Assembly (NCBI GenBank): GCA_965116725.1
Contig: OZ220700.1
Span: forward strand, 564,923-628,922
From: Thermodesulfobacteriota bacterium
GTDB lineage: Bacteria > Desulfobacterota_D > UBA1144 > Nemesobacterales > Nemesobacteraceae
Length of the DNA stretch: 64,000 nt
Direction of reading: 5' to 3'
Positions within the stretch are counted from its first letter, which is position 1; every line of letters starts with the position of its first letter. The translations under genes were made by a program, and so were the position numbers. Below the pieces are notes generated by a model. That model had not been told where the DNA came from. It made no database searches and worked only from the letters and a program-made list of their open reading frames with translations. Shown here in pieces: positions 4,385 to 41,720 of the stretch.

Positions 4385-4420
4385 TGATCTCGCGGCAAAG
4401 ACATTTCCTGAGACAAAACT

Positions 4421-8676: not shown

Positions 8677-8713
8677 CGGAGTCTCCCGTCCTAAACAGTA
8701 GCGTGAACATTAC

Positions 8714-10111: not shown

Positions 10112-10364
10112 TCAGACGGGAGACTTCCTCCATCGCAAGCTCCGAGTCTTCCCCCTCTATCGTAACGGCAACTTCAGTGCCACAAATGGCCGCAAGGGAC
10201 AAAACGCCCAGTATGCTTTTTCCGTCTATCTCGAAACTGTCTTTCCTTATCATTATACTGGAACTGAATCTGCTGGTCAGGGCGACCAGAACCGCGGCCG
10301 CTCTGGCGTGAAGGCCTAAACGGTTCCTTATTACGAAGTTTTTTACAAGCGGTTTCTGCGACAA
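10071..10364 (-). CDS. ptsH: Phosphocarrier protein HPr
   Basis: 97 aa. His15 motif (GLHARAAA) and Ser46 motif (GKSILGV) both present. No EI or EII genes are nearby. Confidence 0.75.
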   Translation of the reverse strand: MSQKPLVKNFVIRNRLGLHARAAAVLVALTSRFSSSIMIRKDSFEIDGKSILGVLSLAAICGTEVAVTIEGEDSELAMEEVSRLIESGFGEGVDPEN

Positions 10365-10365
10365 A

Positions 10366-11118
10366 TCAGGGTTCCTCTGCGGACCGGAAAAAAGAAATAT
10401 CCGTCTTTGAGTTTACCCGTAAATTCTCGTCATAATTCACGTTGAGACTGTAATCGGCGGTCTCAAAAAGCAGCTTTCTCGGGAAATAGGTGTCCGAGTC
10501 AATCCGTTTGAACAGCGAGAACTCAATCTTAGCCTTCTTTCCGTCAGAAAGCGTACCCTCTACTCTGGTTATGAAGTTTCTAGGGAAATCTACCGTGACC
10601 TGAAGAGGCGTGCTTCCCGAAAACACGAAAACTATTTCCCCTTCCTTCTTCCCGGTCCGCACAGAGTAACTTTTCTGGGGAAGGGCAAATGGGGATCCCC
10701 CCAGCAGAAAGTTTACTATGTCCTCAACTCCGAGCTGGGGCGGGAGTCCCGGATAAAGGTAGGAAAGTCTGAAATCCTCCGGATTCTCAAAGATCAACTC
10801 TTCCCAGTTGGTCTTCATTCTCACGCTTTCTCCGTCGGAAACCACCCTCGCGAGCATCTCGCCGAAAGGAGCGAAAACCGAAACTCTGAGAAACTCCGGG
10901 CGGACGACGGTGGCTACCTGATCGAAAACAATTTTCCCCTGTGGGGACTTTATTGACACCCTCGCCCTAGCTTTTATCGAAGTGAAGCCCATCTGGGTGC
11001 GTTTCGCCTTTGCCAATATGGCGGAAAGATCTGGATGTTCGGCGGTAGGGAGCGGGAGCTTACCGGCGCAGGAAAAAAAGAGAAAAACAAATGGAATAAA
11101 AACCCAGCTATGCCTCAT
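10366..11118 (-). CDS. Putative outer-membrane lipoprotein (LolA/LolB-like fold candidate)
   Basis: Signal peptide with lipobox-like FFSCAG. 250 aa, beta-rich. No confident family assignment. Confidence 0.4.
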   Translation of the reverse strand: MRHSWVFIPFVFLFFSCAGKLPLPTAEHPDLSAILAKAKRTQMGFTSIKARARVSIKSPQGKIVFDQVATVVRPEFLRVSVFAPFGEMLARVVSDGESVRMKTNWEELIFENPEDFRLSYLYPGLPPQLGVEDIVNFLLGGSPFALPQKSYSVRTGKKEGEIVFVFSGSTPLQVTVDFPRNFITRVEGTLSDGKKAKIEFSLFKRIDSDTYFPRKLLFETADYSLNVNYDENLRVNSKTDISFFRSAEEP

Positions 11119-12877
11119 CGCGCTTGAATTCCTTTAGCTTTTCTTGAAGCCTCGCGCGGATTTTCCTGTCTTCAACCGTAACCAGTTTCTTGGAATCCAG
11201 GAGTTCAAGGGCTTTCGTGTAATTCTCCACCGCGAGTTCTCTTTTGCCGAGTTTCTCATACACATCGCCCACGTGCTCCAGAATGGCCGCATCGGGAGGA
11301 GGCATCTCCGAGGCGCGAAGCAGATACTCGAGGGCTCCGGTGAAATCGCCCTTCTGATAGTAAACCCACCCCAGGCTGTCGATTATGTAAGCCCGCCCGG
11401 GAGCAAGCTCAAGAGCCTTGTTAATGAGTTCCTCGGCGTAATCAAGTTTTTCTCCTCGCTCGGCGTATGTGTACCCGATGAAATTCATCGCATCGAAACT
11501 CCGCGGATTCCTGCTGATTATATCCTCCATTACCGAGAGTGCTTCCGTTATTCGGTCGCTGTAGTAATACGAAACGCCAAGCGAATACAGAACGGATTCG
11601 TCATCGGGATGCTTTTCAAGATACCTGCCGTATAAAGAGATTGAATCATCCTGTCTCCCCTGCCTTCCATAGATTTCACCCAGAGAATTCACGGCCTTGG
11701 GATTGTCCGGGTCCTTCTCATGAAGCTCTCTCAGTATATTGATCGCCTTCTGTGCCGAACCCTCAAGTTCATGTATGTATGCTCCATGGACGACCGCGTC
11801 TACGTGGAAATCAGAGCTTTGGGGTATGGAATCGAGAAGCATTCTTGACTGGGAATACTGCCCGAGCTTGGTGTGGGCGACGGCGGAGTAGTATTTTGCC
11901 CCAAAATGTGCGGGCAGACGTTCGAAAACCTGCTTCAGTTCTCCGATAGCTTCCTCGTAACTGCCGCTTTCAAGATACAGAAGACCTATTCTGAAGCTGA
12001 TCTCGGGATTCTCCGGATCCGCGGCCTCCGCGTTGTGGTACTGCTTTATGGCCTCCTCGAACCTGCGCTGGCGGTAAAGCATGTTCCCGTAGGAAATAAA
12101 GACATCGCGATAAGGAGCAAATTTCCTGATCGCCGACTCGTACTGCTCTATCGCCTCTTCGATTCTTTTCGCTTTCTCAAGGGTTTCGACGAGCCCGGCG
12201 AAAGCGGGGTAGTATGTCCGTTGAATTTCAAGAGCCCTCTTGTAGTGCTTTACCGCGGTATCCAGATCGTTTCTTCTGGAGGCGATGCTTCCAAGGTAGA
12301 AGTGACCCGTGACATCTTTAGGACTTATCGAAAGACTTTTTTCGGCATACTTCTGCGCCTTCTCAAGATTTCCGGAATACAGTTCAGTCGCACAAAGAAG
12401 CAGATAGGTTTCATTGTCCCCGGGATCGATCTCAGCTGCCTTGAGCAGGAATTTCTTGCCCCTTTCCTTCATGGCTTCGTCCGGATATGCAAGGTAGATG
12501 CGGGCAAGGTCCCTGTAAGCCGGCGAATTTGACGGATCAAGAACAATGGACTGGGTGAACTTGGCAACGGCCTTCTCGCGCATATTAAGAACCGTGTAAA
12601 TCAGAGCGAGACGGTATTTTATTTCAGAAGACTGGGGATCAATCCGTTCTGCCTCTTCAAGGCTCTCCAGTGCACGTTTCAGGTCCCCTTGTTCCAGATA
12701 AAGCGCCGAAAGCGCAAAATGATAATACGCATCCTCCCGGTCTACGCTCTCAAGATCCCGGTCGGGGTCGACAAAGAGTCCCACGCCGCTACAGGAAAGA
12801 CAAAAAAAGAGAAAAGACAGAAGAAAAAGCTTTTTTTTAGGAAATTTCTTCAAGCCACGCACCCAAGCACATATCAA
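11108..12877 (-). CDS. TPR-repeat protein (589 aa), probably envelope-associated
   Basis: N-terminal signal/lipobox-like segment. More than 10 tandem 34-aa TPR-like units (recurring A..Y..A/L..G..EEA..Y..AL..P pattern). Confidence 0.75.
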   Translation of the reverse strand: MICAWVRGLKKFPKKKLFLLSFLFFCLSCSGVGLFVDPDRDLESVDREDAYYHFALSALYLEQGDLKRALESLEEAERIDPQSSEIKYRLALIYTVLNMREKAVAKFTQSIVLDPSNSPAYRDLARIYLAYPDEAMKERGKKFLLKAAEIDPGDNETYLLLCATELYSGNLEKAQKYAEKSLSISPKDVTGHFYLGSIASRRNDLDTAVKHYKRALEIQRTYYPAFAGLVETLEKAKRIEEAIEQYESAIRKFAPYRDVFISYGNMLYRQRRFEEAIKQYHNAEAADPENPEISFRIGLLYLESGSYEEAIGELKQVFERLPAHFGAKYYSAVAHTKLGQYSQSRMLLDSIPQSSDFHVDAVVHGAYIHELEGSAQKAINILRELHEKDPDNPKAVNSLGEIYGRQGRQDDSISLYGRYLEKHPDDESVLYSLGVSYYYSDRITEALSVMEDIISRNPRSFDAMNFIGYTYAERGEKLDYAEELINKALELAPGRAYIIDSLGWVYYQKGDFTGALEYLLRASEMPPPDAAILEHVGDVYEKLGKRELAVENYTKALELLDSKKLVTVEDRKIRARLQEKLKEFKRDEA

Positions 12878-13040
12878 TCCTCGGTTCCAAAACCCCGGTG
12901 CGTACTAGTCACGAAAGGAAAAGCCGCCGAGACATCACCGGGCAGAACCTTCTCAAACAGAATAACAAAAATGGATCAAAATACACAGCAAAGGAAAACA
13001 GTGCCGACCGCTTCTGCCCAGCAAGTTAGCCGGCCAACAG

Positions 13041-13988
13041 CTATTGTCTCTCGGGCCGCTGCCTCCAGCCGCGCTTCGCAAGGACCTCGGCAAACTCTTT
13101 GATTTCCCCTGCGCGCTGTGGATCAATTCGTTCAACTTTCCCTTCGTGTTCAATAAAGAAGTAAAGCTCTGAGAAAATACAGCCGGAAGGACAATCACCC
13201 CATGCCCTGCGAAACACCGCGTACCATTTCCCCTCTGACCACAGCACTTCAATATCGGAACCATCCCCCAATATGGAATTGGGCCTGGCGTAAATGACTC
13301 CTTCTATTTTCTCATATGATGCGCCCGCGGAGTAGACGTGCTCGCGCGGGTCAAACCTGATCACGATGACTTGCGTATATTCAAAAGGAAGAATTTCCAC
13401 GCCTCGCAGGCCAACCGACGCATTAAGAGCGTCAAACTCCGGGCGCCCTGTACAAAAAGGAGCGGAAACACCCTCTTCGGGCAGACTGACGGACACGGCT
13501 TCAAACAAAGACGGTTCCAAACTCAAAATCAGCGTCCCGGGTTCCCATCTTGGGCGCGCATTCACCTCGGCCATCTCCGGCCATGTGGAACGTATTATCC
13601 CCAAAACCCGCGCTATATCATCGATAAGACTGCGCCCGGAAAGATCCGGGATTTCTAAGACGCGACGGGCTAGAATCGCGGAATCAGTCTCGCTAGTCTG
13701 TTCAAGAGCTCCGCGAGTGACAACCGGTGCCTTGTCGCCGCACGCATCAGACAGAATAACAGCAGATGGGGATACCGGAGAATCCGCAAAGCATGCCGTC
13801 ACCATCATACACAAAACGGCAACAATTGAGATCTTGACTATGGACATCCGGAACCTCTGAACAGATACAGAGTGTATATTTTTCGGGAACAGCATCTTTA
13901 ATTCCATGAACTCCATATATTTTTCATTATATGTCATCATAAAAACAGGGGCTCCCGACCTTCTATCAGAATGTGTATCCTCACACAC
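13041..13988 (-). CDS. Hypothetical lipoprotein
   Basis: Likely true start at the internal Met near 13847 (MSIVKISIVAVLCMMVTAC...), which gives a signal peptide and a VTAC lipobox. The rest has no recognisable motif. Confidence 0.5.
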   Translation of the reverse strand: MCEDTHSDRRSGAPVFMMTYNEKYMEFMELKMLFPKNIHSVSVQRFRMSIVKISIVAVLCMMVTACFADSPVSPSAVILSDACGDKAPVVTRGALEQTSETDSAILARRVLEIPDLSGRSLIDDIARVLGIIRSTWPEMAEVNARPRWEPGTLILSLEPSLFEAVSVSLPEEGVSAPFCTGRPEFDALNASVGLRGVEILPFEYTQVIVIRFDPREHVYSAGASYEKIEGVIYARPNSILGDGSDIEVLWSEGKWYAVFRRAWGDCPSGCIFSELYFFIEHEGKVERIDPQRAGEIKEFAEVLAKRGWRQRPERQ

Positions 13989-14136
13989 CAGTTTCTTAAA
14001 TGTAATATAAATACTGTAACTCCCTACAATTTATAAAGTCTTCTCACAAAGAAAATCAGGGAATAATCACACATTTCTTTTCTAAATGTAAAAACACCTA
14101 CAAGTAATGGACAGTATGTAGTGCTTGAATGGTGGG

Positions 14137-14165
14137 TTGACATTATTTCTGTTTTCTGGTATTAG
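14137..14165 (+). promoter_or_regulatory. Candidate sigma70-type promoter (TTGACA, 17-nt spacer, TGgTATTAG extended -10)
   Basis: TTGACA at 14137-14142. 17 nt spacer. TG at 14157-58 followed by TATTAG at 14160-65. No annotated plus-strand gene follows before the terminator at 14252-14292. Confidence 0.3.
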
Positions 14166-14171
14166 TACTAA

Positions 14172-14292
14172 CTGTTCGGTAACATAGGTTCATATCTCTG
14201 TTGCCTCCTTTAAGGAGTTAGGTCTCTTTATAGATTCGTGTGTTTTGAATGGGAAGACTAGGTCGCTACCACAGCTTAGTCTTCCTTTTTTT
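14172..14292 (+). ncRNA. Candidate small RNA (~120 nt) bounded by a predicted promoter and a strong intrinsic terminator
   Basis: Promoter-like element upstream. Internal perfect hairpin CTCCTT-t-AAGGAG. Terminates in a 9-10 bp GC-containing stem (ggaagacta...tagtcttcc) plus a 7-T run. No ORF of more than 21 codons in the interval. Confidence 0.3.
14252..14292 (+). terminator. Rho-independent terminator (plus strand)
   Basis: Stem ggaagactag / ctagtcttcc with one bulge and a ~14-nt loop, followed by ttttttt (14286-14292). The orientation only works on the plus strand. Confidence 0.6.
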
Positions 14293-14486
14293 ATTCAAAT
14301 GAAGTAGCTGAGTGGTAAATACGGAGTGGCGGCGGTCGGAGTTCTGGATAAAACCGTAAAATCACACGCAAATAGGCTTTTAAACTTTTATCACATCGCC
14401 AACCCGCATGTGCTGGACACTACGCCTCTAAACTATACGCTTTTCCCCAACTGCAGGGAAACTTTCCGTTCGCACCAGTTTCGAAG

Positions 14487-15632
14487 TTGGCTTCAGGAGC
14501 ACTGCTTGCGGAATTGACTTTGCCTCCGCTATTAGCTTTATTAATTTTCTCTATGAGTTCGCTCGAAAATATCTACGGGAAGGTTTTTGAAGGTAAGCGG
14601 ATATCGACCGACGAAGCCGCCCAGCTTCTCGCAAAGGCCGACCTGCTCCAGTTGGGTTCCTTGGCCGATATAGTAAGGAAAAGGTTTAATCCGGAAAACA
14701 TAGTGACCTTCGTCGCGGACACAAACCCCAACTATACGAACGTCTGCGACACGGAGTGCCTTTTCTGCGCTTTCTGGAGACCGCCGGGCGCCTACGACGC
14801 CTACACCATGAGCGTCGACAAAGTAATCGAAATAATGCGCACCTCCTACCACAACGGCGCCACTACCGTCCTTCTGCAGGGCGGCCATAACCCGGAACTT
14901 AAGCTTGACTACTACATCGAAATCGTAGAAAGGACCACGAGGGAGATACCGGATCTTCATCTCCACGCATTCTCCGCCCCGGAGATAGCCGCCATTGCCA
15001 AGTACGAAAACCTCGACACGAGATACGTGCTGCAAACCCTCTGGGACGCGGGGCTGAGAACAATACCGGGAGGGGGAGCAGAGGTGCTGTCCAACAGGGC
15101 GAGAAGGGCGATAAGCCCTCTCAAGATAGATGCTGACACCTGGATGAGAATCACCAGGGAAGCTCACCTTGTGGGCTTTAAGACAACCGCAACCATGATG
15201 TTCGGTCACCTTGAGGAAGACGAGGACATAATCGAGCACCTCTTCAGGATAAGAGAGCTTCAGGATGAAACGGGGAATTTCCTGGCGTTTATCCCCTGGA
15301 CATTCAAGCCTAAAAACACCTTGCTTGAAAAAAGAATAAAGGACGAGGTCGGCGGGGAAAGATACCTTAGGGTTCTTTCGGTGTGCAGGATATTCCTTGA
15401 TAACTTCAAGCATGTACAGGGCTCTTGGTTTACCCAAGGAAAGAAAATGGGTTCAATGTCCCTGCACTACGGCGCGAGCGACCTCGGCGGGACTCTTTAC
15501 GACGAAAATGTCCTGGGGTGCGCTGAGAACAAGATCCGCTCGACTGTGGACGAGCTTGTTCACATGATAAAAAGCGCCGGGTTTAACCCCGCGCAGAGAA
15601 ATACCTATTACGAAATTCTGGAACGGTTCTAG
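14487..15632 (+). CDS. Radical SAM enzyme of the MqnE/MqnC family (menaquinone biosynthesis via futalosine)
   Basis: CDTECLFCAF radical-SAM cysteine triad in the NYTNVC...C.FCAF context typical of MqnE/MqnC/CofH-type enzymes. C-terminal HYGASDLGGTLYDENV. The likely true start is the internal Met near 14553 (MSSLENIYGK). Confidence 0.65.
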   Translation: MASGALLAELTLPPLLALLIFSMSSLENIYGKVFEGKRISTDEAAQLLAKADLLQLGSLADIVRKRFNPENIVTFVADTNPNYTNVCDTECLFCAFWRPPGAYDAYTMSVDKVIEIMRTSYHNGATTVLLQGGHNPELKLDYYIEIVERTTREIPDLHLHAFSAPEIAAIAKYENLDTRYVLQTLWDAGLRTIPGGGAEVLSNRARRAISPLKIDADTWMRITREAHLVGFKTTATMMFGHLEEDEDIIEHLFRIRELQDETGNFLAFIPWTFKPKNTLLEKRIKDEVGGERYLRVLSVCRIFLDNFKHVQGSWFTQGKKMGSMSLHYGASDLGGTLYDENVLGCAENKIRSTVDELVHMIKSAGFNPAQRNTYYEILERF

Positions 15633-15705
15633 AGGCTGTCACCTGCCTCTGCCACGGTGACCCTAATCTTCTCTTTCCTGTCCACTTTTAAAGTGAATGT
15701 CCTGC

Positions 15706-16143
15706 TCATTGATTGCCCCTGCCCATTGGGCCATTAAGCACGCCTCCCCAATAACATGTCCGGACATAGCCTTTTCCTATACAGTTCTCGCCCGTGCCGA
15801 AATTATAGTAATACCCCGTCCGGCTATCGTAACTCCAGGGGTTGTAATTGCTATCGTAGCCCCTCATGTCCCCGTCCGGTTCGATAGTCGCATTCCAGTA
15901 CGCCCCTGTTTTCGTATCAAAGCCATGAACGGTCGTCTTGCCCTCAGAATCCGTATTCCAATAGTAGCTGTTTCCCGAATACCAGTCGTGGCCCGTCCCG
16001 CTCTGGGCATAAGCAGGTAACGAAAACGCGGTCACTAGCATCAGCAATAACGGTAAAAACCTCACTTTGCTAAGGTAACAGGTTTTAAGCAGGCCCGCAA
16101 AAAGGCAATCAGGAAAGGAAAATGAATATATAGAAACAGCCAA
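15706..16143 (-). CDS. Small secreted Tyr/Trp/Gly/Asn-rich protein
   Basis: Signal peptide (FLPLLLMLVTAFSLPAYAQ). Mature part is dominated by Y, W, G, N, D, T (YYWNTDSEGKTT, AYWNATIEPDGD, YNPWSYDSRTGYYYN). Likely last gene of an eda operon. Confidence 0.45.
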   Translation of the reverse strand: MAVSIYSFSFPDCLFAGLLKTCYLSKVRFLPLLLMLVTAFSLPAYAQSGTGHDWYSGNSYYWNTDSEGKTTVHGFDTKTGAYWNATIEPDGDMRGYDSNYNPWSYDSRTGYYYNFGTGENCIGKGYVRTCYWGGVLNGPMGRGNQ

Positions 16144-16157
16144 AATAATGAGTGCTT

Positions 16158-16529
16158 TCAGTCAGTAACGGTTATTATCCAGCTGTTTCCCGAAAAATCC
16201 ACACTGCAGACAATTTTCGATCTTTGGGAGAAAACATAATCAAAAAATTCAAGCGCACTGCTTGTATGCACCGGGGCCCCGAGATACTCCTCTAAATTCT
16301 CCGCAGAAACTCCCGAACACTCAAAGGCACAAAGCTCAAAGTCAACCGCTCCTTCTCGATCAACCGCCGTGATGCAAAGCGAAAAAGAAGCGCTTACAAG
16401 AGAAGTTTCTGAAGCAATTTCCATCCGGACGTCAAAGCCACCACCGAAAAGAAAAAAAATCTCGGCAAACACCTCGTCTATTGAATCAAGATAAAACTCC
16501 CTTGCCTGCGGCTTTGTATCCATTTTCAC
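16158..16529 (-). CDS. Hypothetical acidic protein
   Basis: 123 aa with no recognisable motif. Its start overlaps the eda stop by 4 bp (ATGA), suggesting co-transcription. Confidence 0.4.
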   Translation of the reverse strand: MKMDTKPQAREFYLDSIDEVFAEIFFLFGGGFDVRMEIASETSLVSASFSLCITAVDREGAVDFELCAFECSGVSAENLEEYLGAPVHTSSALEFFDYVFSQRSKIVCSVDFSGNSWIITVTD

Positions 16530-17137
16530 GTGGAGAACCGGGAGAACTCCTCGGCTCTTTGTTTTATGGACTGATAGTCGTCTCCTCCGCCCAAAAGCGC
16601 GGTAGACACCCCGGCAAGCGCAGCTCCCGCCGAGAAATAATCCCGAATGTTGTCCACGGTAATTCCTCCGGTGACCATGATATCCATAAATCCGAGAGGC
16701 TCCTTTATGGCTTTCACGTAACCCGGACCGAAACTCGAAGCGGGGAATATCTTTACGAAATCCGCTCCGATGCTGCGGGCGTTAACCATCTCAGATGATG
16801 TAAAGGCTCCGGAGATCGCCGTAATGCCGTTTTTCCGGCAATACTCGATTATCTCGGGATCGGTGTGCGGAGAAACTATGAAACGGGCGCCGCAATCAGA
16901 CATCCGTTCGGCGGAATCACGGTCAAGAACCGTACCCGCCCCGACGCATATTCCGTCCTGCGAGGCAAGCTCCCGAAGAAGTCTTTCAGAACCTGGAGAG
17001 ATTGATATGATTTCTATGATTCTTATCCCGCCGTCAACGCATCCCCTTGCAAATTCAAGAGATTTTTCATAACTGGCGGACCTGATAACGGCCACGATCC
17101 TGTTTTTCCTCATAAACTCAATCACAGTTTTCTCCAT
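16526..17137 (-). CDS. eda: KDPG/KHG aldolase (Eda family)
   Basis: 203 aa TIM-barrel aldolase with RIVAVIR, GIRIIEI, GAGTV, and a Schiff-base Lys in the FVKIFPA context. Confidence 0.8.
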   Translation of the reverse strand: MEKTVIEFMRKNRIVAVIRSASYEKSLEFARGCVDGGIRIIEIISISPGSERLLRELASQDGICVGAGTVLDRDSAERMSDCGARFIVSPHTDPEIIEYCRKNGITAISGAFTSSEMVNARSIGADFVKIFPASSFGPGYVKAIKEPLGFMDIMVTGGITVDNIRDYFSAGAALAGVSTALLGGGDDYQSIKQRAEEFSRFST

Positions 17138-17215
17138 GGCGCGCGGTTTGAGACTTAAAAACTTTTAAGGTACACTGAGACTGGCCTGTTTTAATCCCCC
17201 TAAAAGGGGCAAATC

Positions 17216-17665
17216 ATGAAGAATTCGGAACTCAGAACCGAAAACAAGATATCGCAATTCATAAAAAGAAGCAAAGAACTGGGGCTTAAGGTAACTCCTC
17301 AGAGAATAGCGATATACAGGGAGCTCGCGGGAAGCATGCAGCACCCGAGCACCGAGATGATCTACAAGAACATAAAGGACTACTATCCGAACATATCCCT
17401 TACCACCGTGTACAGAACGCTTGAGACATTCGAGAGAATGGGGCTCATATCAGTAGTTAACACCCTGTATCACGCCGCAAGATACGACGCCAACATGGAA
17501 CCTCACCACCATGTGGTATGCGTAAAATGCAAAAAGATAGAGGACATCTACGACGATTCCGTGGCTTACTCGGAACTTGACCCGCAAATAGATAATTACA
17601 AGATTCTTGGATACTCGGTGCTTTTCAGCGGAATCTGCGAGGAATGCAAAACCCTTAACAACTGA
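17216..17665 (+). CDS. Fur-family metalloregulator (Fur/PerR/Zur type)
   Basis: 149 aa with a winged-helix N-terminus (TPQRIAIYREL), an HHHVVC metal site and C-terminal CX2C pairs (CVKCKK...CEEC). Confidence 0.8.
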   Translation: MKNSELRTENKISQFIKRSKELGLKVTPQRIAIYRELAGSMQHPSTEMIYKNIKDYYPNISLTTVYRTLETFERMGLISVVNTLYHAARYDANMEPHHHVVCVKCKKIEDIYDDSVAYSELDPQIDNYKILGYSVLFSGICEECKTLNN

Positions 17666-17711
17666 CCGGAAACGGGCCGTTTCTCGCAAGGCCGCCTAAA
17701 AGAGCGGAAAA

Positions 17712-19013
17712 ATGAAAATCCCCCAAGGCTTTGAACGAGCCATAAACTTCAGTCTTCTGGATTCCATATTCTCAAGAAGATCGCGCCGTTTCGGCCTCGG
17801 GATGGAAATTCCCGAGGGAAATCTGGCTTACAGTTCCGCTCATGACCCGGTCCCTCTCTCCGAACTTGAAGAAGCTTTTTTGATCTGGGCGGGCACGGGA
17901 ACCACGGGTCTCTCCCTGGGGGACCTTCCGAGAACCGGCATATCGTGGCTTTTCCAGTGGACCGGCAGAAGCTGGCCGTGCTCCTGCAACTCTCATTCGA
18001 CCGAACTTTTCTACACAAACGACGAAGGCGTTTACATGGTGCGGCTTTTTGACCTCATGCCCCCCGACACCTCCATCTTCATGTCGCTTGACAGGGAAAA
18101 GCAGCTTGAAAAAATAGTCGAGCTTTTCAGGGCAAGCAGAATTACCCTTGAGAACCAAAGAGCCGATCTCCCGAAGGGAGAACCCGGCCTTTTCGACTTT
18201 AACGCATGGAATACAAACAAGCCGGGAACGACTTTCTTTATCCCGGTAACCAATACCACAGTCGAGTACATGGTGCTTCTGTTCATATACTTCGGAGCCA
18301 AGTACGGATTTAACATTATTGACGAACTCAACGGGGGAAGATCGTGCGGTCTTGATAAGTGGATAGAGAAAGGCTACATAAGAAACGACGTCAGGCTTTC
18401 CCTGTTTGACCTGGAATTAAGGGTGCTGACCACGCTTAACGTGGAACAGGCCTTTATAAGCCAGAACATGAATCTCGCGTTGCAGGCATTGGGTCTCGGA
18501 GGCTGGACTTTCACCGGACTGCTTCCCCATTACGCGCTCGGGGTCGATCCTTCCCACAAAGGGCTCGGATTCCGGTTCGTCCAGCCGGAGGAAAGCCTCA
18601 GGAGCACAAACCCGCCTTATCCCGTCGGAAGGGACGGAGTTTTCGAATCCCTCTGCCCTCCCTATGTGGCGGACATGAGCGAAGCCGTCGACAGGTTTCT
18701 AGAGGTAAGGGGACAATTCTGGAAGGAGGACAATCCGTTCCCCTACAGAGATCCCGCGTCGATCCTGCGTGACGAATACCATCCTTCCGAAGTCAGAATA
18801 CAGATAGTAAAGGATTTCTGCACCTACGTTTATGAGAACTATGGAAGATTTCCGGCTTTTCTGGACCCGATGTTCGTACGGCTGGTATTTCAGGCCCACC
18901 ACCTTGATCTTGAATTCTACGATAAGTATTTCGAGAAAGATTCATACCACGACCTGCACAGAGAACACTTCAAGCTCTGGCATCCGGAAATTGAGGACCC
19001 TTTCGGGAAATAG
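17712..19013 (+). CDS. Large nitroreductase-fold family protein (433 aa), function unknown
   Basis: N-terminal RRSRRFG. LGLGGW near residue 250 resembles the nitroreductase GLGS/C dimer-interface motif. Roughly twice the size of canonical nitroreductases. Immediately downstream of the Fur-family gene on the same strand. Confidence 0.4.
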   Translation: MKIPQGFERAINFSLLDSIFSRRSRRFGLGMEIPEGNLAYSSAHDPVPLSELEEAFLIWAGTGTTGLSLGDLPRTGISWLFQWTGRSWPCSCNSHSTELFYTNDEGVYMVRLFDLMPPDTSIFMSLDREKQLEKIVELFRASRITLENQRADLPKGEPGLFDFNAWNTNKPGTTFFIPVTNTTVEYMVLLFIYFGAKYGFNIIDELNGGRSCGLDKWIEKGYIRNDVRLSLFDLELRVLTTLNVEQAFISQNMNLALQALGLGGWTFTGLLPHYALGVDPSHKGLGFRFVQPEESLRSTNPPYPVGRDGVFESLCPPYVADMSEAVDRFLEVRGQFWKEDNPFPYRDPASILRDEYHPSEVRIQIVKDFCTYVYENYGRFPAFLDPMFVRLVFQAHHLDLEFYDKYFEKDSYHDLHREHFKLWHPEIEDPFGK

Positions 19014-36804: not shown

Positions 36805-37149
36805 TCACGTTTCGTATTCGACAAGAGCCACATCCGTTCTTATCTGCCGGATGAACTTTCCGACCTTCACGTGCTCGGGATGCTTCAGGAAAACTTCATA
36901 ATCTTCCTTCGAGTCGAACTCAGAATAGAGAGATACATCGTACGCGACAGGAAGCTCACTAAAACTCTTGCCAAGCTCCATAGTCTTTATCTCCGGAACG
37001 GCGTTTTTCAGTACCTCTACTTTCTGTTTGAACTTGGCAATAAGCTCATCCTTGCTCATTCCTTCGTGCGAATCCTTCAGTTTCCACATCACCATACGTT
37101 TTATCACCTGAGTCTCCTTGGAAAAAGTTTCTGTAGTTCTTCCAAACAA
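36805..37149 (-). CDS. Dabb-family stress-responsive protein, copy 2 (paralogue of 36311..36613)
   Basis: The probable true start is the GTG at 37107 (VIKRMVMWKLKD), preceded by GGAGA as in copy 1. Ends VEYET (copy 1 ends VDYET). Confidence 0.6.
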   Translation of the reverse strand: MFGRTTETFSKETQVIKRMVMWKLKDSHEGMSKDELIAKFKQKVEVLKNAVPEIKTMELGKSFSELPVAYDVSLYSEFDSKEDYEVFLKHPEHVKVGKFIRQIRTDVALVEYET

Positions 37150-37261: not shown

Positions 37262-39988
37262 ATGTGGGAAAAAAGAGAGATATTCAGCGAACTTCCGTTC
37301 GTTTCGAATTTCGAGAAAGACAAAACCGATTTCCTGCTTAAGATAGGCGAACTGATAGAAGTGCCGGAACGCTACGTTCTCACCAAACAGTTCGAACCGA
37401 GTCATTCTTTCTACTTCCTCGTAGAGGGACTAGTGAATTTTTCAATCAGCGTCGAAGACAGAACCAATGAATTCTCGGTGGGCAAGAGCGACGAAAAATT
37501 CACTCCCGTAGGCTGGTCGGGCTTCCGCTCTCCCAAACGCTACTACACAACGATCACATGCGAGAGTCCTTGCGTCTTGCTAAAGTGGAGCCACCAGAAT
37601 CTTGAAAAATTCTTTGACCAAGAACCCTTTCTGGGACGTGAATTCCTGCTTTTCGTTCTCGGCAAAAGCATAAACCTTCTAAAACATGTCAGGACCGAAC
37701 TTGCAGAATACAACAACGTCAACTGGGACATTGAAACGGGAAAAACGGGCGGTTTTTCCCAAGAAGGGAGATACATATCCGTACCTAACCCGCTTCAGCT
37801 TCTCAGGCAATCTCCTTTTTTCGAGGTTTTCCCCGACAGAACACTGCGCCAGCTGGCAAAAGCTACCCAGAAAAAATACTATCTAAACAACGAACCCATA
37901 TTCAACCAGGGAGATATCCCCAAAGGAATAGACATACTGGCTTACGGAAAGGCGGCACTGTGCTTCTCTCCCGACGGGGCGCAGGGAGGAATCGAGGAAT
38001 CCGCCGCGCTTCATCTGATTAACCTCCCCGGATATCTGGTCGGATGGATGGGCGCTGCTCCCGCCGGATCAAACGACATCACCGCTGTTGCGAGCAGAAA
38101 CTCTGTTATCTATCACATAAGCACCCGCAATCTTCATAAAATCCTGAATCAGGATCCCCACTCGGCGCTGGCGTTGGCAAGAAGACTTTTGTGGTTGGTG
38201 TCAATACGGCTTCGAAATGCCCGCGCGGGGCTCATATCGCAAAGATACGAACGAGAAATACTGGCTATAAGCAACCTTATAGAGCAGAACTCCATGCAGT
38301 TAAGCGTAAACTCTCCCATTCACAAACTCCCCCACCTGCTAAACAGCCCGCTTACGCTGGATGATGCTTTCCGGCTTCTGTTCAGGCTGGAAAAAGAAGG
38401 CGAAAGCCTTGAGAGGGAACTGTCCCGTCTCAGCCTTGATATTCTCGGAAAGATCTACAAGGAATACAACTTTTTCGAGGGACTAAAAAACGTTTATCAG
38501 TCCGTGACCGCTGCGCCCAAGTCGCTTTGTCCAAGCGAAATAAGAACCATGGCGGCCAAGCAGTTCGCTGGAGTCTTCAACAGCACTCCTTACGTAATTG
38601 AAGGCTGGGAAAACCTGCCAGATGAGCCGGGGCACATCTTCATATACAATCATCTGCTGAATCATCCCTATAACACCCTTCCCAATCATTTTCAGATTAC
38701 ACTCGATTCCCACTTCATAAGCTCGATGGTTCTTTACGCCAAGTACGGCGAGGCCGGGATCCGCGTCGTACGTGTTCCAAGGGCGGAGGAATACGGACAT
38801 GAATACTACTACGAAAGGCTCGGACACATAAATGTTTACACCGGCGAATCCGATCTCTCCCAAGGAACCCCGGAGCGGAGAAAAGCTTGGAGGAGAAAGT
38901 TCTATGAAACGGCCAAGGATCATCTGGAAAAAGGATTTAACATAGTAATAAGCCCTGAGGGAACCAGCATGACGACGGAGGAATCGCCCGGTCCGTTCAA
39001 ACTCGGCGCTTTTCTTCTGGCCGCATCCGTCTCGCCCGAACCGTATATCGTTCCCGTGGCCGTGGCGAACTTCGACAAAAGAATAAACCAGAACGTGTTC
39101 TCCCTAGTAATAAAAAAGCCCTTCAGGGTATCCGATTACGTAAAAAACCCGCAGGAGAACAAAGACAGCCTCTTTGAATTCGTCAGCAAATACGGAAACG
39201 AATACAGAAAATATGTGGAAGAGGCAGCGGGACTCGCAAGACGAGTAGAATCCACCAAGATAAACTTAAAAACCTTCGAGCAGGTCGAAAAAGAGTCCCC
39301 AGTAATCGATAAAAATCTGTTTGAACAGGATGTAAGGATCCTTGAGAGACGCCATGTGGGGAAAAAGAATGACGCGACGGTATTTTACGGCAGTTCAAGT
39401 TTCCGCCTCTGGAGGGCCATGGCAAGGAATTTCTCCGATTACAACGTCATAAATCTTGGCTTCGGAGGCGCCAGAATCACCTACTGCCTGCACTATTTCG
39501 AGCGCCTAATAAAACCGAATGACGTTAAATCCCTGGTTTTCTACGCGGGCGATAACGATATAGGGGACGGCTGCATACCAAGGCAGGTGCTGAATTTTTT
39601 TGTGGATTTTTACCACCGCTTCAGAGAATCCTACCCCCACACGAAATTTACCTTCGTCTCAATAAAACCGAGTCCCGTAAGGTTCCATTTTCTTGACAGA
39701 ATCGAGGCGTCAAACGATCTCGTAAGACAGTTCCTGTCGAGAGAACCAAATACCTTTTACCTGAATGTTTACGACCACATGCTGGATGAAAGCGGGAATA
39801 TAAGGGAGGAACTGTTCACCGAAGACGGTCTCCACATGAACAGAAAGGGATACGCACTATGGAAGGGTCTGTTTTTGGCGAACGAAAAGGAAATTTTTTA
39901 CGACCCCGGACCCGAGGAATCTGAAAGGCAGACTAAACTTCTCCCGAAAACGGAAATCCACACACAGGCACCCTCTGATCTGGCTTGA
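37262..39988 (+). CDS. Multidomain fusion: two cyclic-nucleotide-binding (CAP effector) domains + PlsC/LPLAT-type acyltransferase domain + C-terminal SGNH/GDSL hydrolase domain
   Basis: Residues ~1-150 and ~170-330 each have the CAP/CRP beta-roll layout with a C-terminal helix. Middle domain: NH-box variant (IYNHLLNHPYN), ISPEGTS (motif III F/PEGTR) and IVPVAV (motif IV). C-terminal domain: SGNH blocks I (FYGSSSF), II (NLGFGGARI), III (YAGDNDI) and V (DGLHMN). Confidence 0.65.
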   Translation: MWEKREIFSELPFVSNFEKDKTDFLLKIGELIEVPERYVLTKQFEPSHSFYFLVEGLVNFSISVEDRTNEFSVGKSDEKFTPVGWSGFRSPKRYYTTITCESPCVLLKWSHQNLEKFFDQEPFLGREFLLFVLGKSINLLKHVRTELAEYNNVNWDIETGKTGGFSQEGRYISVPNPLQLLRQSPFFEVFPDRTLRQLAKATQKKYYLNNEPIFNQGDIPKGIDILAYGKAALCFSPDGAQGGIEESAALHLINLPGYLVGWMGAAPAGSNDITAVASRNSVIYHISTRNLHKILNQDPHSALALARRLLWLVSIRLRNARAGLISQRYEREILAISNLIEQNSMQLSVNSPIHKLPHLLNSPLTLDDAFRLLFRLEKEGESLERELSRLSLDILGKIYKEYNFFEGLKNVYQSVTAAPKSLCPSEIRTMAAKQFAGVFNSTPYVIEGWENLPDEPGHIFIYNHLLNHPYNTLPNHFQITLDSHFISSMVLYAKYGEAGIRVVRVPRAEEYGHEYYYERLGHINVYTGESDLSQGTPERRKAWRRKFYETAKDHLEKGFNIVISPEGTSMTTEESPGPFKLGAFLLAASVSPEPYIVPVAVANFDKRINQNVFSLVIKKPFRVSDYVKNPQENKDSLFEFVSKYGNEYRKYVEEAAGLARRVESTKINLKTFEQVEKESPVIDKNLFEQDVRILERRHVGKKNDATVFYGSSSFRLWRAMARNFSDYNVINLGFGGARITYCLHYFERLIKPNDVKSLVFYAGDNDIGDGCIPRQVLNFFVDFYHRFRESYPHTKFTFVSIKPSPVRFHFLDRIEASNDLVRQFLSREPNTFYLNVYDHMLDESGNIREELFTEDGLHMNRKGYALWKGLFLANEKEIFYDPGPEESERQTKLLPKTEIHTQAPSDLA

Positions 39989-39997
39989 AATAGCCCC

Positions 39998-40390
39998 CTA
40001 CTGCCGCCCGCGCTCCCTTCCCGAAGAGGGGATTAGAACCCACATCTTTCTTTTCGAGTGACGTCCCCAGCTTGGAGAGAGCAGAACGTAATTGCCCCAA
40101 AGGAGCGGTGAATCGCCGAGATTAAAAGAGAGTCTGAAGGCACCTTCATGACTCGAGACGTACCTCCCGGAAACGAAAAAATCGGCTTTCGCCGCGGAGG
40201 ACTGCCTGCAGAGAAAAGGCCAAAGATCATTTTCTTCAAACTCAATCCCGATAGCCTTCTCCCTCTTGTCCATCCATTGCGCGTTTGGAAAAACCCAGTG
40301 GTGATAACCGTCTTTGAATTCTAGGGAAAGGACAAAACAGGTGGTTTCCGAGACGATTTTCCTAACAGAGTATCTGAGAGTTGAGTTCAT
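39998..40390 (-). CDS. Hypothetical protein downstream of coaX
   Basis: 130-aa ORF overlapping the coaX stop by 29 bp. No recognisable motif. May be spurious. Confidence 0.25.
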   Translation of the reverse strand: MNSTLRYSVRKIVSETTCFVLSLEFKDGYHHWVFPNAQWMDKREKAIGIEFEENDLWPFLCRQSSAAKADFFVSGRYVSSHEGAFRLSFNLGDSPLLWGNYVLLSPSWGRHSKRKMWVLIPSSGRERGRQ

Positions 40391-41357: not shown

Positions 41358-41720
41358 TTGTGTTATAGTGGAACTATTAGTCCTATAAGGAGGAATTTTG
41401 TTATGTGGAAGTTTTACAATAGTCTTGCGTTGCGCCGTTTTCAAGGGATACGCGGTCTCGGAATTCTCGCTTTATCGGTGGCGTTCTGCCTTACAGGATT
41501 GCTAGCGCTCTCATCCTGTGATGATGACGATGATGAAGCGGAAGCGCAACCAATTGAGATGAGAGGATTCTACACCAGTGTTAATGCGGATGGTACAACG
41601 GATTGTACGAATGAAGACATTGACCTGCGCGAGGAAGAGGCCGGAGATGAGTCAGTGAGCCCAACGTCAGGATCACCGCAAGAGGCGTCGCTTTCGGATC
41701 CGCAACCTTTCTACAGGTAG
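41358..41720 (+). CDS. Lipoprotein, N-terminal portion of a frameshift-split gene
   Basis: The likely true start is the ATG at 41403, after AGGAGG (MWKFYNSLALRRFQGIRGLGILALSVAFCLTGLLALSSC, lipobox LSSC). An acidic linker (DDDDDEAEAQ) follows. The frame ends at 41720. Confidence 0.5.
   Translation: MCYSGTISPIRRNFVMWKFYNSLALRRFQGIRGLGILALSVAFCLTGLLALSSCDDDDDEAEAQPIEMRGFYTSVNADGTTDCTNEDIDLREEEAGDESVSPTSGSPQEASLSDPQPFYR

What the first reader, a model, noticed from the sequence alone, without database searches (positions are those of the whole stretch)
37262..39988. Single-polypeptide fusion of two cNMP-binding domains with an LPLAT acyltransferase and an SGNH lipase/esterase domain
The two CAP-type cyclic-nucleotide-binding modules sit upstream of two lipid-active catalytic domains.
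- Domains: a PlsC/LPLAT-type acyltransferase (IYNHLLNHPYN NH-box variant, ISPEGTS motif III, IVPVAV motif IV) and an SGNH/GDSL hydrolase with all four blocks (FYGSSSF, NLGFGGARI, YAGDNDI, DGLHMN).
- CAP domains usually gate DNA-binding, kinase or channel outputs. A cAMP/cGMP-gated acyl-transfer plus deacylation enzyme would be an unusual one-protein switch for membrane lipid remodelling.
- Whether the NH-box variant is catalytically competent, and which lipid is the substrate, cannot be told from sequence.
Basis: partly seen in the sequence, partly recalled or inferred. Interest (0 to 1): 0.75.

Follow-up and report, generated by a model that had tools for sequence, protein, structure and literature searches.

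The report
Sensor-linked acyltransferase fused to partner esterase
This is a real 908-residue bacterial protein joining two ligand-sensor domains, a PlsC-type acyltransferase and an acetylesterase-type hydrolase. It is the fused form of a widespread, unstudied gene pair that probably adds and removes an acyl group under control of an unknown small molecule, which need not be cAMP.

Summary

- **Not a one-off.** The sensor-acyltransferase core (~650-690 aa) is a large uncharacterised family found in Dadabacteria, Bacteroidota, Acidobacteriota, Myxococcota and Gammaproteobacteria.
- **Always paired with an esterase.** In all 93 loci examined plus the window, the core has one esterase partner. 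The partner is a fused SGNH domain (31), an SGNH gene abutting or overlapping downstream (24), or a divergently transcribed CE7/AXE1 esterase (39). The two esterase types never occur together.
- **Recurrent fusion.** Fusion or fission happened at least 5 times. Fused forms are already in RefSeq/UniProt under generic names.
- **Acetylesterase, not lipase.** Both partner types belong to acetylesterase clades (sialate O-acetylesterase/PAF-AH Ib; cephalosporin-C deacetylase). No transmembrane segment is present.
- **cNMP ligand doubtful.** CNB2 lacks both cNMP-contact residues. CNB1 has an invariant non-canonical pocket (Glu replaced by Trp, Arg kept).

Best reading: a ligand-gated acyl "writer-eraser" (or deacylation-reacylation) module. 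Substrate and ligand are unknown.

The parts
37262..39988 (+). Whole gene: 908-aa CNB-CNB-LPLAT-SGNH protein. It is monocistronic, flanked by opposite-strand genes (Dabb 36805-37149, hypothetical 39998-40390).
37262..37711 (+). CNB1 (aa 1-150): CAP/CNB-fold sensor domain. This is the likely ligand-binding module.
   Evidence: Pfam; AF2 (pLDDT ~90); Foldseek; best PDB sequence hit is DNR
37511..37552 (+). CNB1 phosphate-binding-cassette equivalent, GWSGFRSPKRYYTT (aa 84-97). G84, W85, S86, G87, F88, P91, R93, Y94, T96 and T97 are invariant or nearly invariant (112-117 of 117) in the aligned family. The canonical Glu is replaced by Trp; the Arg is kept.
37715..37774 (+). Disordered linker between CNB1 and CNB2 (aa 152-171, pLDDT 32-37).
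37775..38251 (+). CNB2 (aa 172-330) including the long C-terminal helix 299-328. It has the CNB fold but a degenerate pocket.
38030..38092 (+). CNB2 cassette GYLVGWMGAAPAGSNDITAVA (aa 257-277). The Glu position is W262 (W/L in the family). The Arg position is N271 (N/Q/T/H/S in the family).
   Evidence: alignment to T. thermophilus CRP 4ev0; conservation
38252..38581 (+). Helical linker / N-terminal helical extension of the acyltransferase (aa 331-440). It is high-confidence and continuous with the CNB2 C-helix.
38582..39259 (+). LPLAT (PlsC/GPAT-fold) acyltransferase alpha/beta core (aa 441-666).
38648..38716 (+). Motif I variant NHLLNHPYNTLPNHFQITLDSHF (aa 463-485). N463-H464 and D482 are invariant in 121/121 sequences. 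A conserved insertion of about 13 residues separates His from Asp, and position +5 is Pro.
38951..38968 (+). Motif III SPEGTS (aa 564-569). P-E-G is invariant. The canonical Arg of FPEGTR is replaced by Ser (120/121).
39047..39076 (+). Motif IV IVPVAVANFD (aa 596-605).
39260..39307 (+). Flexible tether (aa 667-682, pLDDT 30-49). In unfused relatives the stop codon of the core gene and the start of the SGNH gene lie here.
39308..39913 (+). SGNH hydrolase domain (aa 683-884), sialate-O-acetylesterase/PAF-AH Ib clade. The catalytic residues S712, G735/G736, N765, D855 and H858 are all present.
39914..39988 (+). Disordered C-terminal tail (aa 885-908) and the stop codon.

Best explanation
The gene encodes a soluble (or at most peripheral) cytoplasmic enzyme. 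It is the fused version of a conserved two-component module: a ligand-sensing LPLAT acyltransferase plus a dedicated acetylesterase-type hydrolase.

**Proposed mechanism**
1. The PlsC-fold domain uses H464 as general base. D482 probably replaces the canonical HX4D Asp. The domain transfers an acyl group from a thioester donor to a hydroxyl acceptor.
2. The tethered SGNH domain (S712/D855/H858) hydrolyses the same class of ester. This either erases the product (a writer-eraser cycle) or generates the de-acylated acceptor (deacylation-reacylation).
3. The group handled is probably acetyl or short-chain. Both alternative partners (SGNH of the PAF-AH Ib/sialate-esterase clade, and CE7) come from acetylesterase families.
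4. A small-molecule ligand binds the invariant CNB1 pocket (W85, R93, Y94, T96, T97). CNB2 is a degenerate relay. The signal passes through the rigid helix 299-328 and the helical extension into the N-terminal helices of the acyltransferase. This sets the balance between the two activities.
5. The ligand may be a cyclic nucleotide but need not be.

**Shown:** the folds, the catalytic residues, the obligatory gene coupling, the recurrent fusion and the cytoplasmic location.

**Inferred:** catalytic competence, a shared substrate, the direction of regulation, the acyl-chain length and the ligand identity.
For: **Folds**
- Pfam.
- Foldseek: tandem CNB similar to PKA-R, E 5e-14.

**Catalytic residues**
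- N463-H464, D482, E566 and D605 are invariant in 121/121 sequences.
- S712, N765, D855 and H858 are invariant or nearly so in 143-146 sequences, including stand-alone partners.

**Gene coupling**
- In Arcticibacterium and a metagenome contig the core gene overlaps a 195-199 aa SGNH gene by 4 or 8 nt.
- Over 93 loci plus the window there are 31 fused, 24 adjacent-SGNH and 39 divergent-AXE1 cases. None lacks an esterase, and the two esterase types are mutually exclusive.
- Identity of the SGNH part tracks identity of the core: r = 0.99, and r = 0.89 below 60% identity.
- There are at least 5 fused/unfused transitions on a core tree.

**Acetylesterase affinity of both partners**
- The SGNH family profile hits 7pzg/6njc at E 2e-19, 2hsj at 1e-17 and PAF-AH Ib at 1e-14. 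TesA is absent.
- The AXE1 partner hits B. pumilus AXE at 2e-32 and cephalosporin-C deacetylase at 2.4e-32.

**Cytoplasmic location**
- Maximum Kyte-Doolittle 19-residue hydropathy is 1.46.
- The partners have no signal peptides.

**Sensor**
- The CNB1 pocket is invariant in 117/117 sequences, while the CNB2 pocket is variable.
- The CNB2-to-acyltransferase connection is continuous high-pLDDT helix. The CNB1-CNB2 and acyltransferase-SGNH linkers are disordered.
Against: - There is no biochemical or genetic data on any family member. Literature searches found nothing.
- The canonical HX4D Asp and the motif III Arg are missing, so activity and acceptor type are uncertain.
- The Pfam acyltransferase hit is partial. 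TIGR00530 scores far below its cut-off, 19-21 bits against 103.
- Acetyl specificity is inferred only from the nearest characterised relatives, at about 20% identity.
- Model coordinates and PAE were not available. I could not check the H464-D482 geometry, the size of the acyl tunnel or the docking of the CNB domains.
- No conserved third gene or pathway context points to a substrate.
Confidence: 0.5

Rival explanations
1. One reading: a cAMP/cGMP-gated Lands-cycle enzyme. The SGNH domain would act as a phospholipase A or lysophospholipase on membrane glycerophospholipids. The PlsC-like domain would re-acylate the lysolipid with a long-chain acyl donor.
For: - The closest structural relative of the acyltransferase domain is the LPA acyltransferase PlsC, including its N-terminal helices (212 of 232 residues aligned).
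- The motif II Arg (R504) is invariant.
- CNB1 keeps the phosphate-binding Arg R93 and the R-x-A-T pattern.
- Epac-type CNB domains bind cAMP without the Glu (own knowledge).
- Sources label the stand-alone SGNH partners 'lysophospholipase L1-like esterase'.
- PAF-AH Ib acts on a glycerophospholipid (own knowledge).
Against: - CNB2 lacks both Glu and Arg. CNB1 has an invariant Trp at the Glu position.
- There is no transmembrane or strongly amphipathic segment.
- The motif III Arg that binds the lipid phosphate in PlsC/GPAT is Ser.
- The SGNH clade and its CE7 replacement are acetylesterase families, not long-chain lipases.
- TesA, the real lysophospholipase L1, is not hit at E <= 0.01.
- No cyclase gene was seen in the 12 distinct loci with Pfam tables.
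Confidence: 0.2
2. A linear biosynthetic or salvage pathway rather than a cycle. The esterase would unmask (de-acetylate) an imported or intermediate compound, for example an acetylated sugar or lipid. The acyltransferase would then attach a different acyl group, producing a specialised lipid or metabolite. The CNB domains would sense pathway demand.
For: - The coupling of the two genes is strict, with translational overlap.
- CE7 enzymes and this SGNH clade de-acetylate sugars and small molecules (reviews PMC6282417, PMC10154613).
Against: - No transporter, glycosidase or biosynthetic gene is conserved next to the pair in any lineage examined.
- The module is self-contained in five phyla.
Confidence: 0.15
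3. The LPLAT-like domain is a non-catalytic acyl-ligand or CoA-binding regulatory module (a pseudo-enzyme). The only catalytic output would be the partner esterase, which the CNB-LPLAT protein would regulate.
For: - The canonical HX4D Asp is missing, as is the motif III Arg.
- The Pfam match is partial.
- An esterase partner is always present.
Against: - N463-H464, D482, E510, H513, P565-E566-G567, D605 and the active-site insertion are invariant in 121/121 sequences. That pattern is typical of retained catalysis and unlike pseudo-enzymes, where catalytic residues drift.
- PatA-type LPLATs use an acid residue from elsewhere (own knowledge).
Confidence: 0.12
4. An artefact: a chance fusion produced by a sequencing or assembly frameshift that merged two neighbouring genes, with no biological meaning.
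For: In close relatives the two genes overlap or are separated by a single in-frame stop codon. A one-base error could therefore fuse them.
Against: - The same fused ORF occurs in 28 independent Dadabacteria loci at 54-96% identity.
- It also occurs in cultured Maribacter, Flagellimonas, Reichenbachiella and Marinomonas genomes.
Confidence: 0.01

Closest known systems
PlsC / LPLAT (GPAT-AGPAT) acyltransferases, e.g. T. maritima PlsC (PDB 5kym)
   Different: - The Asp at H+5 is absent. There is a conserved 13-residue insertion, with an invariant Asp 18 residues after the His.
- The motif III Arg is replaced by Ser.
- There is no membrane anchor.
- Two CNB domains and a 110-residue helical extension precede the domain.
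- The TIGR00530 score is far below its cut-off.
PAF acetylhydrolase Ib alpha subunits and bacterial sialate O-acetylesterases (SGNH; PDB 1bwp/1wab, 7pzg/6njc)
   Same: These are the nearest sequence and structural relatives of the C-terminal domain. They share all four SGNH blocks and are small, single-domain cytoplasmic-type esterases.
   Different: Identity is only about 20%. The domain has its own invariant signature (FYGSS-x-RLW, NLGFGG, YAGDND). It is always encoded with, or fused to, the sensor-acyltransferase. Its substrate is unknown.
Mammalian PAF remodelling pair: LPCAT2 (an LPLAT with lyso-PAF acetyltransferase activity, regulated through EF-hands and phosphorylation) plus PAF-AH Ib (PMC4076079; own knowledge)
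   Same: An LPLAT-fold 'writer' is paired with a PAF-AH Ib-type SGNH 'eraser' acting on one ester position. The writer carries a signal-sensing module.
   Different: This is only a functional analogy. The two activities are separate proteins in mammals and membrane-bound there. No evidence shows that the bacterial substrate is an ether lipid or that the acyl group is acetyl.
CNB-domain-regulated enzymes: neuropathy target esterase/PNPLA6 (CNB + patatin) and mycobacterial Rv0998/KATmt (CNB + GNAT, cAMP-activated; reviewed in PMC8556138)
   Same: A CNB-fold sensor is fused N-terminally to an acyl-group-handling enzyme.
   Different: The catalytic folds differ (patatin, GNAT). KATmt has a canonical cAMP pocket. 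Here the pocket is non-canonical, and two opposing catalytic domains are present.
Tandem CNB domains of PKA regulatory subunits, including the cAMP-independent trypanosome PKA-R (PDB 6flo, 6hyq)
   Same: The two-CNB arrangement is similar (Foldseek E 5e-14). The trypanosome proteins show that cassette substitutions can retarget CNB domains to other ligands (nucleosides).
   Different: There is no inhibitor sequence or kinase partner. The linker between the two CNB domains is disordered here, and the cassette substitutions are different (Trp at the Glu position).
[not shown]
   Same: An acyl(acetyl)-handling transferase module is combined with an SGNH domain.
   Different: OatA uses a membrane AT3 domain, and its SGNH domain is extracytoplasmic and acts as the transferase. 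Here the partner is a cytoplasmic LPLAT-fold domain with sensor domains.

Membership tests
CAP/CNB (Pfam cNMP_binding PF00027) | HMM score above the gathering threshold | tested here: met
   51.1 bits against 27.5, two stretches.
CAP/CNB (Pfam cNMP_binding PF00027) | Eight-stranded beta-barrel plus helices, similar to solved CNB domains | tested here: met
   [not shown]
Cyclic-nucleotide-binding CNB domains (functional subset) | Phosphate-binding-cassette Glu that contacts the ribose 2'-OH | tested here: not met
   W85 in CNB1 (117/117 in the family). W262 in CNB2 (W/L in the family).
Cyclic-nucleotide-binding CNB domains (functional subset) | Phosphate-binding-cassette Arg that contacts the cyclic phosphate | tested here: inconclusive
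   Met in CNB1 (R93 invariant, R-Y-A-T-T). Not met in CNB2 (N271; N/Q/T/H/S in the family).
Cyclic-nucleotide-binding CNB domains (functional subset) | Measured binding of cAMP or cGMP | not testable with these tools
   Needs ITC or DSF on purified protein.
LPLAT / PlsC-type acyltransferases (Pfam PF01553) | HMM score above the gathering threshold | tested here: met
   28.9 bits against 23, but only profile positions 57-131, i.e. motifs II-IV.
LPLAT / PlsC-type acyltransferases (Pfam PF01553) | GPAT/AGPAT alpha/beta fold | tested here: met
   [not shown]
LPLAT / PlsC-type acyltransferases (Pfam PF01553) | Motif I HX4D: catalytic His | tested here: met
   N463-H464 are invariant in 121/121 sequences. 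A weak alignment places them on the PlsC 'ANHQ' motif.
LPLAT / PlsC-type acyltransferases (Pfam PF01553) | Motif I HX4D: Asp five residues after the His | tested here: not met
   Position 469 is Pro here, and P 54 / E 41 / R 11 across the family. An invariant D482 at the start of the next helix is a candidate substitute.
LPLAT / PlsC-type acyltransferases (Pfam PF01553) | Motif III (F)PEGTR with the phosphate-binding Arg | tested here: not met
   SPEGTS: P-E-G is invariant, and Arg is replaced by S569 in 120/121 sequences.
PlsC proper (1-acyl-G3P acyltransferase, TIGR00530) | Score above the NCBIfam cut-off | tested here: not met
   19.3-21.5 bits against 102.95.
SGNH/GDSL hydrolases (Pfam PF13472) | HMM score above the gathering threshold | tested here: met
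   48.3 bits against 32.9.
SGNH/GDSL hydrolases (Pfam PF13472) | Blocks I, II, III and V with the catalytic Ser, Gly, Asn and Asp-x-x-His | tested here: met
   S712, G735/G736, N765, D855 and H858 are present. They are invariant or nearly so in 143-146 fused and stand-alone homologues.
SGNH/GDSL hydrolases (Pfam PF13472) | SGNH flavodoxin-like fold | tested here: met
   [not shown]
Long-chain lipase / lysophospholipase L1 (TesA-type) | Closest relationship to TesA-type enzymes, or lipase activity | tested here: not met
   A profile of the partner family does not hit TesA at E <= 0.01. The top hits are acetylesterases. Enzyme activity itself is not testable here.
NTE-like CNB-patatin esterases | Patatin catalytic domain | tested here: not met
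   No patatin hit in Pfam or NCBIfam.

The most novel reading that the evidence does not exclude
The family may be a previously unrecognised bacterial signalling or homeostatic switch. One cytoplasmic unit would combine an LPLAT 'writer' and an acetylesterase 'eraser' that set the O-acetyl (short-acyl) state of a specific lipid or metabolite. This would be a bacterial counterpart of the LPCAT2/PAF-AH Ib cycle. The switch would be governed by a new, non-cNMP ligand read by a CNB-fold pocket with an invariant Trp/Arg/Tyr signature. It is ancient enough to have undergone non-orthologous displacement of the eraser (SGNH versus CE7) and repeated gene fusion across at least five phyla.
Probability: 0.2. 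Interest if true: 0.85.

Novelty: new variant of a known kind. Interest (0 to 1): 0.6.

Why it matters
- **A gap in bacterial lipid biology.** Regulated acyl remodelling (a Lands-type cycle, or an acetylation/deacetylation switch) is well known in eukaryotes but barely documented in bacteria.
- **A testable module.** This family offers a compact, soluble unit in which sensor, writer and eraser are physically linked. It occurs in cultured, genetically accessible organisms (Marinomonas mediterranea, Maribacter, Flagellimonas, Arcticibacterium).
- **Strong evidence of a functional partnership.** The core is always paired with one of two unrelated esterase folds, and the two never occur together. 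Comparative genomics rarely gives clearer evidence than this.
- **A lead for ligand discovery.** The invariant non-canonical CNB1 pocket is a candidate for a new ligand specificity of the CNB fold.
- **A practical annotation point.** These proteins are currently named 'GDSL-type esterase/lipase' or 'cyclic nucleotide-binding domain-containing protein'. Both names hide the acyltransferase domain and the module.

Tried and rejected
- **Operon context in the window.** The flanking genes are housekeeping genes on the opposite strand (GSDH-like, TsaD, Dabb | target | hypothetical, CoaX, epimerase, GuaA). They are syntenic only within Dadabacteria and give no functional clue.
- **A conserved third gene.** An Abhydrolase_1 gene lies near some loci, but only in a subset of closely related Vicinamibacterales. 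Neighbours in Arcticibacterium, Marinomonas, Polyangiaceae and the metagenome contigs share nothing else.
- **Naive ORF clustering of flanks.** This failed on the high-GC Acidobacteriota loci because of spurious long ORFs. I replaced it with look-ups of called genes.
- **Sequence alignment of motif I to PlsC.**
  - phmmer against PDB gave only a non-significant local alignment to 5kym, E 0.9.
- **RNA and transcription signals.** There is no Rfam hit around the gene. Promoter and terminator scans found no more than chance.
- **Literature.** Five searches for the architecture or the family found nothing relevant.
- **afdb50 fold search.** The library was not available.
- **CNB docking on the acyltransferase.** This could not be assessed, because PAE and coordinates are not returned by the tool.
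- **Assembly artefact.** Considered and rejected (see the rival explanations).


Full report
**1. The observation**

The window has a single long ORF at 37262-39988 on the + strand (ATG start, 908 aa). Pfam finds three families above their gathering cut-offs:
- cNMP_binding: two stretches, E 1.3e-13
- Acyltransferase PF01553: E 1.1e-6, covering only the motif II-IV half of the profile
- Lipase_GDSL_2: E 2.2e-12

The AlphaFold2 model built on an 83-sequence alignment has mean pLDDT 83.4. It has three disordered stretches: aa 152-171 between the two CNB domains, aa 665-682 before the SGNH domain, and the C-terminal tail.

Fold searches confirm all three folds.
- The tandem CNB domains resemble PKA-R/PKG tandem CNB domains (Foldseek E 5e-14).

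For the acyltransferase the fold and the His are there, but the canonical Asp is not.

**2. Organism and local context**

The closest homologues (83-94% identity) come from Candidatus Dadabacteria MAGs. NCBI now places this class in Thermodesulfobacteriota.

Opposite-strand genes flank the target on both sides: a Dabb-domain gene upstream, and a 130-aa hypothetical followed by coaX downstream. The wider neighbourhood is housekeeping (carB, thiC, tsaD, guaA, guaB). The gene is therefore monocistronic, and the window itself says nothing about substrate. No Rfam element or above-chance promoter/terminator signal is present.

**3. The fused protein is one state of a conserved two-component module**

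The database search shows that full-length (~880-910 aa) proteins are confined to close relatives. A much larger set of ~650-690 aa proteins at 42-48% identity carries only CNB-CNB-acyltransferase.

Searching with the SGNH domain alone finds ~200-aa stand-alone SGNH proteins at 43-56% identity. They sit on contigs of the same lengths as the short core proteins.

Direct look-ups confirm adjacency. In Arcticibacterium luteifluviistationis and in a metagenome contig, the core gene is followed by an SGNH gene that overlaps it by 4 or 8 nt.

I scanned one genome per species (80 loci) and classified the loci with tblastn and stop-codon checks.
- The ORF is fused in 28 Dadabacteria loci and, independently, in Maribacter sedimenticola DSM 19840 (verified by translation).
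- The genes are separate but abutting (-28 to +17 nt) in Cytophagales, Cyclobacteriaceae, Jiulongibacter and Marinoscillum.
- Two loci that my script flagged as fused (L035, L038) actually have a single in-frame stop between the two genes.
- No SGNH gene lies within 6 kb in Vicinamibacterales (Acidobacteriota) or Polyangiaceae (Myxococcota).

**4. Non-orthologous displacement of the esterase**

In the SGNH-less lineages a gene of the AXE1 family (Pfam PF05448) sits directly upstream and is divergently transcribed. A tblastn search of these AXE1 proteins against all loci gave a clean split. Every one of the 36 loci without SGNH has the AXE1 gene, and none of the SGNH-bearing loci or the window has it.

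I then tested five more divergent core representatives (30-42% identity to the query).
- Three have the divergent AXE1 gene. One of these had no precomputed Pfam hit but scores E 4e-122 against a profile of the other partners.
- Two have an overlapping downstream SGNH gene.

The tally over 93 loci (a few are redundant) plus the window is:

| Partner state | Count |
|---|---|
| Fused SGNH | 31 |
| Adjacent SGNH | 24 |
| Divergent AXE1 | 39 |
| No esterase partner | 0 |

Other findings point the same way.
- Identity of the SGNH part to the query tracks identity of the core (r = 0.99; r = 0.89 among loci below 60% identity). The two parts are therefore co-inherited.
- An exhaustive search of 1.84 billion cluster representatives finds 323 representatives at E <= 1e-30 (this count includes fragments and SGNH-only proteins). 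Among them are fused proteins at only 30-37% identity.
- Those fused proteins belong to Marinomonas mediterranea (WP_013662188.1 / UniProt F2K2A6), Flagellimonas/Allomuricauda, Reichenbachiella and unnamed metagenomic lineages.
- A rough neighbour-joining tree of the core, with Fitch parsimony, needs at least five fused/unfused changes.

Recurrent fusion, translational overlap and mutually exclusive replacement by an unrelated esterase fold all argue that the acyltransferase and an esterase act on the same chemistry.

**5. What kind of esterase**

A profile of the SGNH partner family hits the following PDB entries (structural ranking agrees):
- Bacteroidales sialate O-acetylesterases 7pzg/6njc, E 2e-19
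- a putative PAF acetylhydrolase 2hsj, E 1e-17
- bovine PAF-AH Ib alpha subunits, E 1e-14 to 1e-10

E. coli TesA, the true 'lysophospholipase L1', does not appear at E <= 0.01. More distant members of this SGNH clade are fused to GH141/beta-helix modules or occur as tandem SGNH proteins, which are carbohydrate-esterase contexts.

The alternative partner is a clear CE7 homologue. It hits B. pumilus acetyl xylan esterase at E 2e-32, B. subtilis cephalosporin-C deacetylase at E 2.4e-32, and T. maritima TM0077.

CE7 enzymes and PAF-AH Ib are acetyl- or short-chain-specific esterases (established knowledge; reviews PMC6282417, PMC10154613). So two unrelated partners converge on acetylesterase families. 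This points away from a long-chain 'lipase' and towards removal of an acetyl or short acyl ester. It remains an inference from relatives at about 20% identity.

Both partner types lack signal peptides, and the fused protein has no hydrophobic segment (maximum 19-residue Kyte-Doolittle hydropathy 1.46, located in the buried motif IV strand). The whole system is therefore cytoplasmic.

**6. The acyltransferase domain**

Across 121 family members the following are invariant or nearly so:
- N463-H464
- N467, L473, N475, F477, L481, D482
- R504, E510, H513
- P565-E566-G567, G582, F584, P598, A602, D605

A weak local alignment puts N463-H464 on the 'ANHQ' catalytic box of PlsC. hhalign to E. coli PlsC aligns SPEGTS/FPEGTR, PFKxGAF and IVPV/IIPI.

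Two canonical features are missing.
- The Asp five residues after the His is Pro here (P 54, E 41, R 11 in the family).
- The motif III Arg is Ser in 120 of 121 sequences.

The model places 18 residues between the His-bearing strand (aa 459-462) and the next helix (aa 481-495), against about 6 in PlsC. This conserved insertion ends in the invariant D482 at the helix N-terminus, the structural position of the canonical Asp. I infer an 'H-X17-D' variant that is probably active. The missing phosphate-binding Arg suggests the acceptor differs from lysophosphatidate. Without coordinates I could not check the geometry.

The protein is not a PlsC orthologue: TIGR00530 scores 19-21 bits against a cut-off of 103.

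**7. The sensor domains**

*CNB2.* It aligns over its full cassette to a canonical CRP (4ev0). The cNMP-contacting Glu is replaced by W262, and the Arg by N271. These positions vary across the family (W/L; N/Q/T/H/S). CNB2 is therefore very unlikely to bind a cyclic nucleotide and is probably a structural relay.

*CNB1.* It is the opposite. G84, W85, S86, G87, F88, P91, R93, Y94, T96 and T97 are invariant or nearly so in the 117 aligned sequences. This conservation matches or exceeds that of the catalytic motifs. The Arg and the R-x-A-T pattern are retained, but the Glu is an invariant Trp. Its only PDB sequence hits are to DNR, a non-cNMP sensor.

Loss of the Glu does not by itself exclude cAMP, since Epac lacks it (own knowledge). 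However, the CRP/FNR and PKA-R families contain many members retargeted to other ligands. The trypanosome PKA-R proteins among the Foldseek hits bind nucleosides. I conclude that CNB1 binds a specific, probably anionic ligand whose identity is open. I put 'cAMP/cGMP' at roughly one chance in three.

No cyclase gene was seen in any of the 12 distinct loci with Pfam tables.

The CNB2 C-helix (aa 299-328) runs at high confidence into the helical extension of the acyltransferase (aa 331-440). That extension corresponds to the N-terminal helices that shape the substrate entrance in PlsC. This gives a plausible path for allosteric control (inference).

**8. Mechanism and alternatives**

My best-supported reading (confidence about 0.5) is a ligand-gated acylation/deacylation module. 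The LPLAT domain writes an ester. The tethered or co-expressed acetylesterase-type partner removes it, or prepares the acceptor. CNB1 occupancy sets the balance.

The logic is that of other bifunctional opposing-activity proteins such as PFK-2/FBPase-2 and RelA/SpoT-type enzymes. The closest functional analogy is the mammalian LPCAT2/PAF-AH Ib pair, an LPLAT acetyltransferase plus an SGNH acetylhydrolase (PMC4076079).

The alternatives are:
- a linear unmask-then-acylate pathway (0.15)
- a pseudo-enzyme regulator of the esterase (0.12)
- an artefact (0.01, effectively refuted)

**9. Novelty and verdict**

I found no paper on this family in five full-text searches. Its members are annotated only generically.

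The individual domains are ordinary, and sensor-enzyme fusions with CNB domains are known (NTE; Rv0998, PMC8556138). The fused architecture is also already in public databases. This is therefore not categorically new. It is a new, uncharacterised variant: a CNB-regulated LPLAT with an obligate acetylesterase partner.

Three features lift it above a routine domain fusion:
- the strict pairing with one of two unrelated, never co-occurring esterase types
- the recurrent fusions
- the invariant non-canonical sensor pocket

These features make it directly testable in cultured bacteria. Interest 0.6.

Noticed in passing
L022 (OZ242379.1, Dadabacteria-type MAG chromosome) 2939-6057: In this genome the orthologous gene is split after about codon 114 by a 2.7-kb insertion. 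The insertion has 27-nt terminal inverted repeats (3277-3303 / 5973-5999, 96% complementary). It carries a 231-aa ORF and a 606-aa ORF with weak MULE/ISL3 DDE-transposase hits. This looks like an IS-type element that has disrupted the gene, so the gene is dispensable in that strain.
   Followed up: partly
L086 4347-6002 (Polyangiaceae JBNLEN010000001.1), same locus as the AXE1 / CNB-acyltransferase pair: A 551-aa GNAT (Acetyltransf_1) + cNMP_binding protein, of the mycobacterial KATmt/Rv0998 type, and a CBS-domain protein lie 1-2 kb upstream of the AXE1 gene. This places a second CNB-linked acetyl-handling enzyme in the same neighbourhood.
   Followed up: no
window 39998-40390 (-): A 130-aa ORF with no Pfam match overlaps the start of coaX by 29 nt. 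It is conserved at the same position in about 21 Dadabacteria loci. It is an uncharacterised lineage-specific gene.
   Followed up: partly
window 41358-41720 (+): A 120-aa ORF with a hydrophobic N-terminal segment followed by Cys and an acidic run (..LSSCDDDDDEAEAQ..) looks like a small acidic lipoprotein. It has no Pfam hit.
   Followed up: no
L001 (Arcticibacterium luteifluviistationis CP029480.1) 12726-17859: Just downstream of the core + SGNH pair lie a group II intron-type reverse transcriptase (RVT_1 + GIIM), two SSB genes and PDDEXK/DUF1016 fragments. This is a mobile-element-rich patch.
   Followed up: no
P0370 (807 aa, metagenomic) and P0324/P0326/P0328/P0345/P0363 (418-438 aa): More distant members of the same SGNH clade (about 30-41% identity to the domain) are fused to GH141 plus right-handed beta-helix modules or occur as tandem SGNH-SGNH proteins. 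These are carbohydrate-esterase-like architectures.
   Followed up: partly
L093 (Marinomonas mediterranea contig) 7281-11608: The fused orthologue lies between a Flavin_Reduct gene (111 nt upstream, same strand) and a 310-aa gene with no Pfam hit (50 nt downstream, same strand). The PrkA/DUF444/SpoVR stress operon is nearby. I did not test whether these are co-transcribed.
   Followed up: no
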